From a virus, in the IMG/VR virus record IMGVR_UViG_3300045988_145100, positions 1 to 64,000 of that record: a stretch of 64,000 bases of DNA, one strand, 5' to 3'. This document shows, in pieces, positions 47,396 through 50,156 of the stretch. Position 1 is the first letter of the stretch; the number at the start of each line of letters is the position of its first letter. The position numbers were made by a program, and so were the translations under genes. The notes below the pieces were generated by a model. It had not been told where the DNA came from. It did not search any database and saw only the letters and a program-made list of their open reading frames with translations.

Positions 47396-47688
47396 TTAAA
47401 AAGAAAATTCGTAATATCAATAATTTCTTCTCCATAAGTTGCAATAAAATCTGCAATTAGCTCTTCTTGGTCTAATGTCAAATTAATTTGATACGAAAAC
47501 ATTGCCGCATGCGCTAGTTCATGACATAAGACTTTTTTTAATGACCTTCCATACAAATCCTCTCTAAGATAAATAATATTAGTATTATTATCGCATGAAC
47601 CGAGGGTATATGAGCCATCACTTCTTTGTAATTTTTCATTATCTTTTTCAACAAAATAAACCCTCCAATCAATACCATTTATTTTCAT
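47371..47688 (-). CDS. HExxH zinc-metallopeptidase-like protein (ImmA/IrrE or SprT-like)
   Basis: VLCHELAHAAMF motif. Confidence 0.45.
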   Translation of the reverse strand: MKINGIDWRVYFVEKDNEKLQRSDGSYTLGSCDNNTNIIYLREDLYGRSLKKVLCHELAHAAMFSYQINLTLDQEELIADFIATYGEEIIDITNFLFNKLKERSY

Positions 47689-48233
47689 TATTTTATCTTT
47701 GCAGCTAAATTAGCTATTTTCTGTTGGAGAACTTGTTTTTCTTCTGGAGTAGAATCTTTTATCATTTCTGTGATATCACTACCTAATTCTTTAATATAGT
47801 TATCTAATTCATGCATTTGAGTAGTACTATCTTTGTGCATTTCCTTAGATTCCATATACATGCGGCGGCTCATACCGCTTCTACCCTCTCTAGAATCACG
47901 CATCATTGTCTTTGGAATTTGTTCTGTATACATCATTCGTGTACCAGTATATCCAGTTCCCGCACCAGGTTTGTCATCATAATACATTCTTCCATATTCT
48001 CTATCTACGTCTCTATAGTAATCTGGATATCTTTTATCTGTATAATAATGTATTTCTTCTTTCTCTTTTTCTTCCATAGCTTCTGTAATTGTGCAATAAT
48101 AAATAGCTTCAGATAGGTCCTTTATCATATCAACAGCTTCGCCTAACTCTTTAGCATTTACATTTTGCATATTTCCCATTTGCGCTTGGATAACACTGGT
48201 TAATTGCTCTTTCATACTTTTTAAGTTATTCAT
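47688..48233 (-). CDS. hypothetical Tyr/Met/Arg-rich protein
   Basis: 181 aa. YYTDKRYPDYYRDVDREYGRMYYDD is a low-complexity Tyr-rich core. Confidence 0.45.
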   Translation of the reverse strand: MNNLKSMKEQLTSVIQAQMGNMQNVNAKELGEAVDMIKDLSEAIYYCTITEAMEEKEKEEIHYYTDKRYPDYYRDVDREYGRMYYDDKPGAGTGYTGTRMMYTEQIPKTMMRDSREGRSGMSRRMYMESKEMHKDSTTQMHELDNYIKELGSDITEMIKDSTPEEKQVLQQKIANLAAKIK

Positions 48234-48247
48234 AAGGACTCCTTTCT

Positions 48248-48670
48248 TTAAGCTACTCGCTCAACAATTAAATTAGCATTTTGTACTAAGATAGTTACTC
48301 CACTTGTATTTGTAACTGCTATTGTAGCACAACAATTTTTAGGCACATCTACAAAAATATCTGCAGAAACATTAAAATAATTACTAACTGCGGCTGGTGT
48401 AACAATCATTCTAGTAGCGGAGATTGGTTCTCCATCAAGAGAGATAGTTACTGAAATTGGACCAGCAGTACCGCCATCTGGCAATGCGATATTTGCTCCA
48501 AAACTAGCTCTAAATCTTGCTCTACATTGGGTAGAAGTCAGGCCGCGTAATTTTACGAGACCTGAACCTTCTCTATGAACAATAGAGCAATTACCTGACA
48601 CCGGAGTGTCTGTAAATATTACATTTGAATTTGCTGTTACTGTCTGAACTGCATTTGCTGTAATCTCCAT
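48248..48670 (-). CDS. beta-rich Cys-containing protein (resembles DUF3992/Ena or BclA-C-terminal spore-surface jellyroll proteins)
   Basis: 140 aa. NCS/QCR/KNCC cysteines. C-terminus TIAVTNTSGVTILVQNANLIVERVA resembles the Ena-type ending ATITTGLLSVSVVKLA (recalled from memory). Confidence 0.45.
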   Translation of the reverse strand: MEITANAVQTVTANSNVIFTDTPVSGNCSIVHREGSGLVKLRGLTSTQCRARFRASFGANIALPDGGTAGPISVTISLDGEPISATRMIVTPAAVSNYFNVSADIFVDVPKNCCATIAVTNTSGVTILVQNANLIVERVA

Positions 48671-48686
48671 TATAGACCTCCTTTAA

Positions 48687-49469
48687 TTAGCCTGCACATG
48701 CACAACAACCACAATTATTGTATCCATAATTTCCTGTGTAAGGATTAGGAACAATATATGCTGGGTTTGGACTTGGTGCTAAAGTGTGAACAAGATATGC
48801 ATTCTGAGCTTGCTGAGAAGCAGCAAACTTAAGAGCCTGATTGTCTGCTGTAAGAGTAGCAATCTTATCTTGTAATGCTTGAGTATTCATATCCTGGATA
48901 GCAGCTAAGATACTACGAGTATTAGCATCATTTCCTAATGTTATTGCCTGCGCAGCATCCGCTATAGTCTGACGAGTCTGGCAACTCTGTTCAGCTAAGC
49001 GATAATTTAAGTCAGCTGATTGCGTTGCAGACTGGAATTTGTTATCGCAGCAGCACTGACTCATCTGATTACTTAACGCGGTAATTTGAGCAGTTACTGC
49101 GTTAGTATTCTGCATATCTGCTATTGTTTGCTGTGTAATATTGTTATTTACCTGACCAAAGCCATTTAACATACCAGTATTCATAGCATAGAATCCATCG
49201 CAGATACCGTTGTTTACATTGTCGATTTTCCTTTCGATGTTAGCGAAATCTGAAGTTAAAATATAACCATCTGTTATACCACTACCTGTAGAATCTGAAC
49301 CTCCGAAGAGTCCACCTCGTCCATTTCCCCATCCGCCAGCAAAGCAGAATAAGAACAAGATAATAATCCACCAGGCACCTCCGTCATTCCAACCGCCATT
49401 GTTACAGTTATTATTGCCGGTTGCCGCAGCAATATCGGCTAATGAATAACCACTGTTTGAATTGAACAT
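48687..49469 (-). CDS. Gly/Cys-rich membrane protein (YjcZ-like N-terminus, Cys-rich C-terminus)
   Basis: NNGGWNDGGAWWIIILFLFCFAGGWGNGRGG then a long Q/A/N/T helical region, ending NPYTGNYGYNNCGCCACAG. Confidence 0.45.
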   Translation of the reverse strand: MFNSNSGYSLADIAAATGNNNCNNGGWNDGGAWWIIILFLFCFAGGWGNGRGGLFGGSDSTGSGITDGYILTSDFANIERKIDNVNNGICDGFYAMNTGMLNGFGQVNNNITQQTIADMQNTNAVTAQITALSNQMSQCCCDNKFQSATQSADLNYRLAEQSCQTRQTIADAAQAITLGNDANTRSILAAIQDMNTQALQDKIATLTADNQALKFAASQQAQNAYLVHTLAPSPNPAYIVPNPYTGNYGYNNCGCCACAG

Positions 49470-49496
49470 TTCTTTTGTCCTCCTTATAAAATTTAT

Positions 49497-49733
49497 TTAT
49501 TTAACGCCTAACATTTGTTTAAAGGCATTAAAATCTTTATCAAAATCTCCACCTTGACTATTAACATAATTTCTAACAAAATTCTCAATACCATTTGCAT
49601 TATTAGCTTTTGCTAAGTCTGTTAATGTCTTCATATTAGGATTTTGTTCTAAGATTGACAGCATTAATTGCTGTGGGTTAGAACCATTTTTTATCATTCC
49701 AAGTAGTTGCATTGGATTTATTCCATTACTCAT
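49497..49733 (-). CDS. hypothetical protein
   Basis: 78-aa ORF. Confidence 0.4.
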   Translation of the reverse strand: MSNGINPMQLLGMIKNGSNPQQLMLSILEQNPNMKTLTDLAKANNANGIENFVRNYVNSQGGDFDKDFNAFKQMLGVK

Positions 49734-49745
49734 TAAAACCTCCTA

Positions 49746-50156
49746 TTAAAAACTCATAGTTGCTTTGGGTGTTTCCTTTTTATCTCTTTCTTCCAATAGA
49801 GACTTCAATTGTGCAACAACCTTGTCAAACTCTTCCTTAGTTACATATTCTTGCGGAAGTGTGGAAATTTCTTCTTGCAAAGAATAAGAATTCATTATAG
49901 CTATTCCATTTTCGCTTATCTGCTTTGTATAAATTCTTTTATTAGCAATATCTGGGAATAGATATAGACTTCCATCAAAATCAATCTGAGAGGCTTTAGC
50001 CTCATCTATTGAAGAAACCGGTCTTCCTTTTAATGTAGGTTGTTGTGGTTGTGGTGCTACAAACTGTGGTTGCGGCGTTGGTGCTTGCTGGTAGTATTGT
50101 GGCAAGCTATATGGCGACTGAGTTTGTTGACCAAAATAAGGCATTTGATTATACAT
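49746..50156 (-). CDS. hypothetical protein with Gln/Pro/Tyr-rich N-terminus
   Basis: MYNQMPYFGQQTQSPYSLPQYYQQAPTPQPQ... First gene after the minus-strand promoter region. RBS aaggagaaaag. Confidence 0.45.
   Translation of the reverse strand: MYNQMPYFGQQTQSPYSLPQYYQQAPTPQPQFVAPQPQQPTLKGRPVSSIDEAKASQIDFDGSLYLFPDIANKRIYTKQISENGIAIMNSYSLQEEISTLPQEYVTKEEFDKVVAQLKSLLEERDKKETPKATMSF

What the first reader, a model, noticed from the sequence alone, without database searches (positions are those of the whole stretch)
47688..50156. Terminal late cluster of Cys/Gly/Tyr-rich proteins that resemble spore-surface proteins
After the fibre-operon terminator, a separate minus-strand unit encodes four unusual proteins. 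One has a Q/P/Y-rich N-terminus. One is 260 aa with a YjcZ-like Gly/Trp TM start and a CGCCAC tail. One is a 140-aa beta-rich Cys protein whose end (TILVQNANLIVERVA) resembles Ena/DUF3992 and BclA-C-terminal jellyroll proteins. One has a Tyr-rich low-complexity core. A HExxH peptidase completes the unit. No holin or endolysin domain is recognisable in the position where a lysis cassette is expected. These may be decoration or cross-linked virion proteins, sporulation-interfering factors, or a new lysis or exit system.
Basis: inference. Interest (0 to 1): 0.55.

Follow-up and report, generated by a model that had tools for sequence, protein, structure and literature searches.

The report
Mobile late phage cassette, BclA-like protein
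The window ends its late genes with a six-gene cassette of unknown function that recurs in thousands of gut phages; one of its proteins has the fold of the spore-surface proteins BclA and ExsF, and another pairs a hydrophobic segment with a long Cys-rich stalk.

Summary
Between two terminator-like hairpins (50377-50358 and 47363-47387) the minus strand carries six ORFs, not five: A136, B78, C260, D140, E181 and F105.

The unit is a conserved, horizontally mobile cassette. A, C and D are the most conserved gene clusters across 63 loci, and each of C and D has at least 7,700 homologues. It always lies in late regions but in different places: after tail fibres and a holin, after an endolysin next to an integrase, or between a minor capsid protein and the scaffold. 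C alone extends to crAss-like phages and to viruses assigned to Methanomassiliicoccales.

The function is unresolved. My best guess (0.3) is a self-contained stalk-and-knob complex on the membrane that acts at the lysis or egress stage. A virion accessory fibre or decoration is nearly as likely. A role in sporulation is unlikely.

The parts
50358..50377 (-). Terminator-like hairpin ending the upstream tail-fibre operon
   Evidence: 7-bp stem with 6 G-C pairs followed by a T run. One search shows it directly after the stop codon of the 144-aa ORF.
50157..50357 (-). Intergenic leader with a presumed promoter and a strong ribosome-binding site (GGAAAGGAG) ahead of A136
   Evidence: The leader is nearly identical in relatives L003 and L004. 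No promoter motif was established: the TATTTTTATATA motif is not enriched. No Rfam match.
49746..50156 (-). A136. Disordered Q/P/Y-rich N-terminus, then a small core of three strands and a helix, then an invariant C-terminal Phe.
49497..49733 (-). B78. Small N/Q/M-rich protein with NPxQ motifs, always immediately upstream of C.
   Evidence: No Pfam, NCBIfam or PHROG assignment.
48687..49469 (-). C260. Acidic N-tail, Gly-flanked hydrophobic segment (residues 32-44), Q/N/A/T-rich presumed helical stalk with an invariant CCC (139-141), conserved P-A-Y-x-V-P-N-P-Y motif and a Cys/Gly tail.
   Evidence: phrog_16490 at 5e-29. The family reaches crAss-like and archaeal viruses.
48248..48670 (-). D140. 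Stand-alone jellyroll of the BclA-C / ExsF / C1q-TNF type, with near-invariant C49 and invariant C113-C114.
47688..48233 (-). E181. Conserved helical ends around a variable Y/R/D/G/M-rich low-complexity core, with a conserved RDxREGRSxxSRRxYME motif.
   Evidence: Only sub-threshold Pfam hits, including Phage_scaffold at 14.7 bits against a cut-off of 35.
47371..47688 (-). F105. Minimal HExxH (zincin-type) metallopeptidase whose start overlaps the E181 stop by one base.
   Evidence: HE[LI]xH followed by a downstream EE is conserved in 14 homologues. phrog_1233 at 5e-17. DUF6782, SprT-like and M78 all score just under their Pfam cut-offs.
47363..47387 (.). Two-way terminator-like hairpin between the cassette and the converging RuvC-like gene
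   Evidence: 10-bp stem with 6 G-C pairs, and T runs on both strands.

Best explanation
Shown: the six ORFs form a conserved late-gene cassette that moves horizontally between phages.

Inferred: its products build a self-contained complex that does not depend on any particular virion design.
- C is an elongated, probably oligomeric helical stalk held at or in a membrane by its Gly-flanked hydrophobic segment.
- D is a C1q/TNF-like trimer. It docks on C's conserved Pro/Tyr motif and Cys tail, much as ExsF holds the Pro-rich leader peptide of BclA-type proteins in the clefts between its subunits.
- A, B and E are low-complexity partner or chaperone proteins. B may shield C's hydrophobic segment.
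- F is a small zinc peptidase, translationally coupled to E, that processes a cassette component.

None of the six proteins has an obvious N-terminal signal-peptide-like segment (my reading of the sequences; no predictor was run). I therefore place the complex on the cytoplasmic face of the membrane of the infected cell, late in infection. I assign it to the terminal stage of infection: lysis timing, membrane disruption or egress. On this reading it is an accessory to the canonical holin and endolysin.
For: Cassette and mobility:
- A, C and D are the three most widely conserved gene clusters in 63 loci (C in 55, D in 49, A in 44). E, F and B are each found in 20-24 loci, and the gene order is fixed.
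- The cassette is found in unrelated phage backbones: 137-156 kb contigs, roughly 40 kb temperate siphoviruses, Butyrivibrio phage Ceridwen and C. perfringens phages.

Late expression:
- It is co-oriented with tail genes.
- Relatives carry 6-13 in-frame TAG codons in these genes, mostly aligned to Gln in the window proteins.

Link to lysis genes:
- A holin (phrog_13712, 1e-34) lies directly upstream in most window-like relatives (nine loci; it lies downstream on the opposite strand in L016).
- The cassette follows the endolysin in Ceridwen and the PGRP-annotated gene (a presumed amidase-type lysin) in Dulem virus 33. L018, L058 and L037 also appear to have lysin and holin genes upstream, by my own reading (not profile-tested).
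- It follows the holin and the L,D-carboxypeptidase in cr116_1.

Independence from the virion:
- D stays 55-70% identical across backbones that share few other gene clusters within the fetched loci.

Anatomy:
-.
- ExsF binding of the leader peptide: PMC12357932.
Against: - No component matches any lysis family.
- Temperate carriers already appear to have complete holin and endolysin sets.
- In at least ten prophage loci the cassette sits between Phage_min_cap2 and Phage_scaffold genes, not next to lysis genes. In cr116_1 it abuts the scaffold-like gene and the major capsid protein gene.
- The window-like relatives that carry a holin next to the cassette show no endolysin there.
- C's hydrophobic segment is short (about 13-19 residues) and lacks the flanking positive charges usual for a membrane anchor.
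- No heptad periodicity was detected in C.
- The C-D docking is an analogy, not a computation.
- Adjacency to lysis genes may only reflect that the ends of late operons are hot spots for cargo genes.
Confidence: 0.3

Rival explanations
1. Virion accessory structure. D trimers decorate the capsid or another particle surface, as gpD, Dec and Soc trimers do. They anchor C fibres through C's Pro/Tyr/Cys tail, and Cys residues cross-link the layer once outside the cell. C's hydrophobic end is the distal, adhesive tip, kept soluble by B before assembly.
For: - The cassette is embedded between the minor capsid protein and the scaffold plus a capsid-sized ORF (about 305-355 aa, not identified by any profile) in at least ten prophage loci, and it lies directly upstream of the scaffold-like gene and the major capsid protein gene in cr116_1.
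- Expression appears to be late, and relatives recode TAG in these genes.
- The distribution among related phages is patchy, as is usual for decoration proteins (own knowledge). Only 6 C. perfringens phage records match A, while 17DYC is 94% identical to phiCP13O over 70% of its length (PMC10353432).
- TNF-like knobs are common on phage fibres, for example 8ke9, 9k09 and PRD1 P5.
- Invariant Cys residues in C and D.
- Depositors annotated C homologues as 'outer capsid protein/viral fiber'.
Against: - A decoration protein must fit one capsid lattice, yet D is 55-70% identical in phages with unrelated backbones.
- The best 150 D-family matches are all 77-196 aa, so none is fused to a stalk.
- A strongly hydrophobic segment is unusual for an exposed fibre.
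- In the capsid-operon loci the cassette lies in a loose 3-9 kb island with gaps and opposite-strand ORFs, not tightly packed with the head genes.
- The crAss001 head fibres gp21 and gp29 are different proteins (PMC10172136).
Confidence: 0.25
2. Superinfection exclusion or cell-envelope remodelling. The membrane-associated complex blocks DNA entry by other phages, or alters the surface of the infected or lysogenic cell.
For: - In Dulem virus 33 and several prophages the cassette sits between lysis genes and the integrase, the classic position of prophage cargo genes.
- The temperate variant carries what look, by my reading of their sequences, like small sigma-70-region-4-type HTH genes next to it (clusters 31 and 40), which hints at separate regulation. 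A Pfam scan of upstream ORFs found Sigma70_r4 in 2 of 139 ORFs, not attributed to these clusters.
- It is a mobile, self-contained cassette.
Against: - No PADLOC match above noise.
- The cassette is also present in apparently lytic contigs of about 150 kb and in crAss-like phages, inside late operons.
- TAG recoding would make translation depend on the late suppressor state.
- Six genes is large for an exclusion function.
Confidence: 0.15
3. Packaged and ejected pilot proteins. C is a membrane-active protein carried in the particle that inserts into the target cell membrane during DNA delivery, like the phiX174 H protein or podovirus ejection proteins. A and E would be disordered internal proteins and F a co-packaged peptidase.
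For: - C combines a Gly-rich hydrophobic segment with a long Q/N-rich helical region.
- The C family spans hosts with very different envelopes that share only a cytoplasmic membrane.
- The Bacteroides phage homologue at the peptidase position is annotated as a PolyVal metallopeptidase.
- crAss001 packages a cargo protein with a predicted transmembrane helix (PMC10172136).
Against: - The cassette is accessory and mobile, whereas ejection machinery is normally core and specific to a lineage.
- Siphoviruses already use tape-measure proteins for this step.
- D has no obvious role in this model.
Confidence: 0.1
4. Sporulation-related function. The products mimic spore-coat or exosporium proteins and are built into, or interfere with, the host spore surface.
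For: - D matches BclA, F-BclA and ExsFA by fold.
- Compositional parallels, from my own recollection of spore proteins: a Q-rich protein like GerQ, a Y/R-rich protein like CotG, and Cys-rich proteins like ExsY/CotY.
- Most carriers are phages of Clostridia.
Against: - No sequence membership in BclA_C, DUF3992, the exosporium leader or YjcZ models.
- D and C occur in a phage isolated on Butyrivibrio fibrisolvens, and C occurs in Bacteroides, crAss-like and methanogen-associated viruses. As far as I know none of these hosts sporulates.
- The cassette lies within late lytic operons.
Confidence: 0.03

Closest known systems
BclA / F-BclA C-terminal domain (BclA_C, C1q-TNF superfamily)
   Different: Sequence identity is 16-17% and there is no Pfam BclA_C hit. 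D is a stand-alone protein of about 140 aa with no collagen stalk or leader. It is encoded by phages in a late cassette, not in a spore-surface locus.
ExsFA/BxpB (ExsF), the exosporium adaptor that binds the Pro-rich leader of BclA-type proteins
   Different: No sequence homology. C's motif is C-terminal and does not match the exosporium-leader model. Binding was not computed. The context is not a spore.
Accessory proteins of lysis cassettes: T4 holin T with antiholins RI/RIII, and PBSX XhlA/XepA (own knowledge)
   Same: C shares their plan of a single hydrophobic segment and a large soluble domain containing Cys. Small soluble partner proteins are encoded beside it. The cassette lies next to holin or endolysin genes in many carriers.
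   Different: No sequence match to any holin, XhlA or XepA family. No lysis phenotype is known. In other carriers the cassette lies among head genes.
Trimeric capsid decoration proteins (lambda gpD, phage L Dec, T4 Soc) and head fibres (phi29 gp8.5, crAss001 gp21)
   Same: These are also late, accessory and patchily distributed, and form small oligomers. Their genes lie near head or lysis genes.
   Different: No homology. D is conserved across unrelated capsid types. C has a hydrophobic segment, and the cassette brings its own peptidase and low-complexity proteins.
Spanins and class I viral fusion proteins (depositors annotated crAss homologues of C as 'spike protein/glycoprotein')
   Same: C has a Gly-rich hydrophobic segment, then a long helical region with a central Cys motif. 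It shares a 23-residue motif with influenza HA2 (DFANIERKIDNVNNGICDGF against [20 protein letters not shown]).
   Different: The profile-profile probability is only 10%, so this is a short motif and not homology. Most carriers infect Firmicutes, which as far as I know have no outer membrane to fuse.

Membership tests
BclA_C / C1q-TNF-like jellyroll (D140) | TNF-like beta-jellyroll fold | tested here: met
BclA_C / C1q-TNF-like jellyroll (D140) | Sequence match to the curated family model (Pfam BclA_C, C1q or TNF) | tested here: not met
   No Pfam family at E<=1. No NCBIfam hit. A profile search of PDB sequences found nothing at E<=1.
BclA_C / C1q-TNF-like jellyroll (D140) | Domain sits at the C-terminus of a collagen-like or other stalk in the same polypeptide | tested here: not met
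   D is 140 aa. The family has 845 clusters at 50% identity at E<=0.001, and the best 150 listed are 77-196 aa.
BclA_C / C1q-TNF-like jellyroll (D140) | Homotrimer | not testable with these tools
   Only single-chain prediction was available.
ExsFA/BxpB-type adaptor (D140 with the C260 tail) | Trimer binds a Pro-rich exosporium leader peptide | not testable with these tools
   The motif PAYxVPNPY plus a Cys tail is present in nearly all C proteins that have a D partner. It is absent from vir215, which lacks D. No complex prediction was possible. C260 matches no NCBIfam model at all at E<=0.5, so none for an exosporium leader.
Ena / DUF3992 endospore appendage subunits (D140) | Pfam DUF3992 match, or an Ena-like fold with an N-terminal Cys connector | tested here: not met
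YjcZ / tiny transmembrane protein family (C260 N-terminus) | Match to the curated model | tested here: not met
   No NCBIfam or Pfam hit. The resemblance is compositional only.
Holin / endolysin / spanin | Match to any lysis family, or a peptidoglycan hydrolase domain | tested here: not met
   No lysis-category PHROG, Pfam or NCBIfam hit for A-F. The neighbouring gene in relatives is a holin, but it is not part of the window unit.
Zincin metallopeptidase (F105) | HExxH motif with a downstream Glu ligand, conserved in homologues | tested here: met
   HE[LI]xH and an EE about 20 residues downstream are conserved in 14 homologues.
Zincin metallopeptidase (F105) | Score above the curated cut-off of a named peptidase family | tested here: inconclusive
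   DUF6782 scores 24.2 against a cut-off of 27, SprT-like 24.1 against 25.6, and M78 21.7 against 22. phrog_1233 at 5e-17, function unknown.
Phage scaffolding protein (E181) | Pfam Phage_scaffold match | tested here: not met
   14.7 bits against a cut-off of 35.
Known anti-phage defence systems | Match to a PADLOC model | tested here: not met
   Only noise-level hits for E181 and F105.
Influenza HA2 / class I fusion protein (C260) | Profile-level homology | tested here: not met
   hmmsearch E 0.025-0.4.

The most novel reading that the evidence does not exclude
A self-contained cassette that moves between viruses of Firmicutes, and whose stalk protein C also occurs in viruses of Bacteroidota and in viruses assigned to methanogenic archaea. 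It would build an exosporium-style assembly: a stand-alone C1q/TNF-like trimer docked on a Cys-rich, hydrophobically tipped stalk, together with low-complexity matrix proteins and its own peptidase. This would be a previously undescribed viral machine for the last step of infection, either a new egress or lysis device or a universal add-on coat for particles. It would also show that phages use the BclA/ExsF architecture outside spores.
Probability: 0.2. Interest if true: 0.8.

Novelty: categorically new. Interest (0 to 1): 0.62.

Why it matters
The cassette is very common in gut viromes. The C family is also present in crAss-like phages. Yet every component is annotated as hypothetical, or belongs to a PHROG family of unknown function.

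It is a tightly syntenic multi-gene unit that hops between unrelated phage backbones, so it should encode one discrete function that can be tested in cultivable carriers such as Butyrivibrio phage Ceridwen and C. perfringens phage CPD1. Assigning that function would annotate thousands of genes at once. It could also reveal either a new lysis or egress principle or a portable virion coat. It would be the first phage context for the BclA/ExsF type of stalk-and-knob assembly.

Tried and rejected
1. Ena/DUF3992, YjcZ, exosporium leader, holin, endolysin, scaffold and defence assignments. Pfam, NCBIfam, PHROGs and PADLOC gave nothing above threshold.
2. Homology of C to influenza HA2. There are consistent weak hits, but hhalign gives only 10% probability over 23 columns, so I rejected it as a short motif.
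3. crAss001 head fibres gp21 and gp29 as relatives of C or D. They are different proteins, and crAss001 does not appear among the matches (PMC10172136).
4. Homology between D and the small beta-rich proteins at the same cassette position in cr116_1, CPD1 and C3_41T2LP. hhalign probability was below 1%. The crAss 168-aa protein against the A family gave the same result.
6. A shared late-promoter motif upstream of A136. It is not enriched: 14 matches against 8 expected.
7. Coiled-coil periodicity in C. It is not significant; only indels of 7 and 11 residues in the alignment hint at it.
8. Membrane topology of C from flanking charges. This was uninformative.
9. Literature searches for the PHROG ids and for virion proteomics of cultivable carriers found nothing.
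10. Locating the window phage's own endolysin. None appears among the 25 Pfam families shown for the 53 larger ORFs of the window, excluding the cassette itself. Another 19 families were not displayed, and about 90 kb of the genome lies outside the window.
11. The afdb50 fold library was unavailable.
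Full report
**1. The observation**

The window is AT-rich (about 30% G+C). A plus-strand block runs to 47351 and includes NrdD, dUTPase and a RuvC-like gene. A Pfam scan of the window's larger ORFs also found DNA gyrase A/B and DNA polymerase III alpha domains, without giving their coordinates. It converges on a minus-strand block that starts at 47371.

The last minus-strand unit contains six ORFs:
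- A136, 49746-50156
- B78, 49497-49733
- C260, 48687-49469
- D140, 48248-48670
- E181, 47688-48233
- F105, 47371-47688

The unit is bounded on both sides. A terminator-like hairpin at 50377-50358 lies directly after the preceding 144-aa gene and is followed by a 211-nt gap. A two-way hairpin at 47363-47387 closes the unit. E181 and F105 overlap by one base, and the same holds in relatives.

The compositional claims hold:
- A136 residues 1-41 contain 12 Q, 9 P and 5 Y.
- C260 has the stretch AWWIIILFLFCFA between Gly/Trp-rich flanks, 11 Cys and the tail NCGCCACAG.
- E181 residues 61-125 contain 10 Y and 10 R.
- F105 contains HELAH.

**2. Known families**

None of A-E matches a curated family in Pfam, NCBIfam or PADLOC. 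F105 scores just below the cut-offs of DUF6782, SprT-like and M78. PHROGs places D in phrog_20016 (6e-54), C in phrog_16490 (5e-29), A in phrog_21718 (7e-6) and F in phrog_1233 (5e-17). All four families have unknown function. No holin or endolysin family matches.

**3. The 140-aa protein**

- phage fibre knobs: cyanophage A-1(L) 12.6, PRD1 P5 9.0, Sf6 knob 9.0

Foldseek against BFVD finds stand-alone proteins of 130-142 aa from uncultured sipho-, myo- and podoviruses. One of them was named 'BclA protein' by its depositor.

It is not right at the level of sequence: identity is 16-17%, there is no Pfam hit, and a profile search of PDB sequences finds nothing. The Ena/DUF3992 alternative is not supported.

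An exhaustive profile search finds 845 clusters at 50% identity at E<=0.001. The best 150 listed are 77-196 aa, so none of them is fused to a long stalk. In that respect the closest known analogue is ExsFA/BxpB rather than BclA itself. C49 is nearly invariant, and C113, C114 and the C-terminal ERVA are invariant.

**4. The 260-aa protein**

In the alignment the family shares these features:
- a conserved N-terminus (MFN..GYSLADIAAATG)
- a Gly-rich region
- a hydrophobic stretch of 12-14 residues
- the conserved block STGSGITDGYILTSDFANIERKID
- a Q/N/A/T-rich region with an invariant CCC
- the motif L.P.P.PAY.VPNPY
- a Cys/Gly tail

The tail motif is present in nearly all C proteins that are followed by D.

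Several expected properties could not be confirmed. The flanks of the hydrophobic stretch carry almost no Lys or Arg on either side, so membrane topology cannot be called. A simple test found no heptad periodicity. Indels of 7 and 11 residues in the alignment are compatible with a helical repeat structure.

Weak but consistent hits to influenza HA2 reduce to a 23-residue motif. The hhalign probability is 10%, so I do not claim homology. This motif may be why depositors labelled crAss homologues 'spike protein/glycoprotein'.

**5. The other proteins**

- **A136.** The N-terminus is disordered. The core has three strands and a helix, and the C-terminal Phe is invariant. No structural neighbour was found.
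- **B78.** It is N/Q/M-rich with NPxQ motifs and always lies just upstream of C. Its composition reminds me of Met/Gln-rich domains that hold hydrophobic segments. This is my recollection only, and there is no Pfam hit.
- **E181.** It has conserved helical ends and the motif RDxREGRSxxSRRxYME around a variable Tyr/Arg/Gly core.
- **F105.** The HExxH and a downstream EE are conserved.

**6. The unit is a mobile cassette**

Homologues are very numerous: at least 7,981 for D and 7,770 for C, with both searches capped at 8,000 candidates, and 1,274 for A. Near-identical copies of the whole unit lie on contigs of 137-156 kb from human gut samples.

A genome scan with the D profile gave 52 loci. Most are in Clostridia (Lachnospiraceae, Oscillospiraceae, Acutalibacteraceae) and in Bacilli MAGs, and a few are in isolates.

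I clustered all ORFs of 63 loci. The clusters found in the most loci are exactly C (55 loci), D (49), A (44), E (24), F (23) and B (20), and their order is fixed.

There are two variants:
- **Window type:** A-B-C-D-E-F.
- **Temperate siphovirus type:** [126-aa Cys/His protein]-A-[B-like]-C-D-[YSR-rich E-like]-[about 110 aa]. In several loci what look like a small sigma-70-region-4-type HTH gene and a single-pass membrane protein lie nearby.

A of the window is homologous to the protein at the same position in Ceridwen (hhalign 94%).

C alone reaches further. It is found in C. perfringens phages, Bacteroides phage C3_41T2LP, many crAss-like genomes, and two viruses whose records name Methanomassiliicoccales as host. 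In the crAss and Bacteroides phages C is followed by a small beta-rich protein, a protein with a beta domain and a helix, a Tyr/Arg/Asp-rich protein and an HExxH protein. This looks like the same plan, but no sequence homology was detectable for these partners. The Methanomassiliicoccales-assigned virus vir215 lacks both D and the C tail motif.

**7. Genomic context**

The cassette always lies in late regions, but in at least three different places:
- **(a) After tail-fibre genes, converging on the early genes.** A holin (phrog_13712, 1e-34) lies directly upstream in nine window-like relatives. It is absent from the window itself.
- **(b) After an endolysin or presumed lysin and next to the integrase or lysogeny genes.** This is the case in Ceridwen, Dulem virus 33 and several prophages. 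By my reading of the upstream ORFs, canonical holin and endolysin genes are present there as well.
- **(c) Between Phage_min_cap2 (2e-76) and Phage_scaffold (6e-17) followed by an unidentified capsid-sized ORF.** This occurs in at least ten Lachnospiraceae-type prophage loci. In most of them the cassette sits inside a loose 3-9 kb island with opposite-strand ORFs.

In cr116_1 the cassette lies between the lysis genes and the scaffold-like and major capsid genes. Homing-endonuclease-like ORFs are often inserted between C and D.

Relatives of the window phage carry 6-13 in-frame TAG codons within the cassette, mostly aligned with Gln. This indicates TAG-to-Gln recoding in these genes. Published work on gut phages links such recoding to late genes (own knowledge).

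**8. Interpretation**

The following are shown:
- a conserved, mobile late cassette
- a BclA/ExsF/C1q-TNF-fold protein
- a zincin-type peptidase
- a hydrophobic-segment protein with invariant Cys motifs

The following are inferred:
- D is a trimer.
- D docks on C's Pro/Tyr/Cys tail. This is by analogy with the crystal structure of ExsF, which holds the Pro-rich leader peptide in the clefts of its trimer (PMC12357932).
- F processes a cassette protein.
- B chaperones C.

The function is not resolved. D stays 55-70% identical across loci that share few other gene clusters, and the cassette brings its own partner proteins and peptidase. I therefore think it works independently of any one virion architecture. 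Together with the frequent adjacency to holin and endolysin genes, this makes a membrane-associated complex acting at the lysis or egress stage my first choice (0.3).

A virion accessory fibre or decoration layer is nearly as likely (0.25) and is favoured by the capsid-operon contexts. Superinfection exclusion (0.15) and packaged pilot proteins (0.1) follow. A sporulation role (0.03) is disfavoured by the host range and by the failed membership tests.

**9. Novelty**

Only one component has a recognisable fold, and no described system has this gene set. The PHROG families exist but carry no function, and I found no paper on them. I rate the cassette as categorically new in the sense of undescribed. 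It may still turn out to be a variant of a decoration or lysis-accessory system.

Noticed in passing
L015, L017, L019, L032, L038, L040, L044, L047 (cassette genes): Relatives of the window phage have 6-13 in-frame TAG codons within the cassette genes. They align mostly with Gln of the window proteins (27 of 61 aligned positions), which indicates TAG-to-Gln recoding. The window phage itself reads with the standard code, and no tRNA gene was found in the window.
   Followed up: partly
L023, L025, L030, L035, L056 between C and D; L007 4206-4829; L001 12512-13306; L003/L004 11448-12035: Several carriers have 237-371-aa ORFs inserted between C and D. In CPD1 a homing-endonuclease-like ORF lies just upstream of C, and in Ceridwen one lies just downstream of D. 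In close relatives an HNH_3 ORF splits NrdD, whereas NrdD is intact in the window (42843-45011).
   Followed up: no
window 50819-53452 (-): An 877-aa protein rich in Asn, Tyr and Cys (33 Cys) with a repeated 'C.NL' pattern sits just upstream of the cassette. Relatives show faint LRR_5 hits at the same position. It is probably a BspA-like leucine-rich-repeat receptor-binding or fibre protein. It has no PHROG match.
   Followed up: no
window 53460-54572 (-): A 370-aa protein with about ten tandem 'SHAEG(Y/N)' repeats (phrog_25468, 2e-30), presumably a tail-fibre shaft.
   Followed up: no
window plus strand, 1-47351 (coordinates of individual genes not determined): The early block includes DNA gyrase A and B, DNA polymerase III alpha, PhoH, an RNA ligase, NADAR, LemA and a Band_7/SPFH protein with an MVP-shoulder domain. 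This is an unusual set for a phage of about 150 kb.
   Followed up: no
L001 9632-9853; L046 5946-6158; L048 5751-5963; L024 5329-5583; L035 4810-5082: Small proteins of 66-90 aa that look like sigma-70 region 4 HTH proteins lie at the 5' side of the cassette in temperate carriers (my reading of the sequences). This suggests that this variant is regulated separately. The window version has no such gene.
   Followed up: no
window 48001-50000: The cassette has higher G+C (0.36) than its flanks (0.28-0.31). This fits its Gly/Ala/Cys/Pro-rich proteins, horizontal acquisition, or both.
   Followed up: no
L008 4174-4521 and 6754-7149; L009 7341-7805: crAss-like phage cr116_1 has two small HExxH proteins flanking its C-containing block, and Bacteroides phage C3_41T2LP has one annotated as a PolyVal metallopeptidase. 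A small peptidase therefore recurs with C even where the other partner proteins are unrecognisable.
   Followed up: partly
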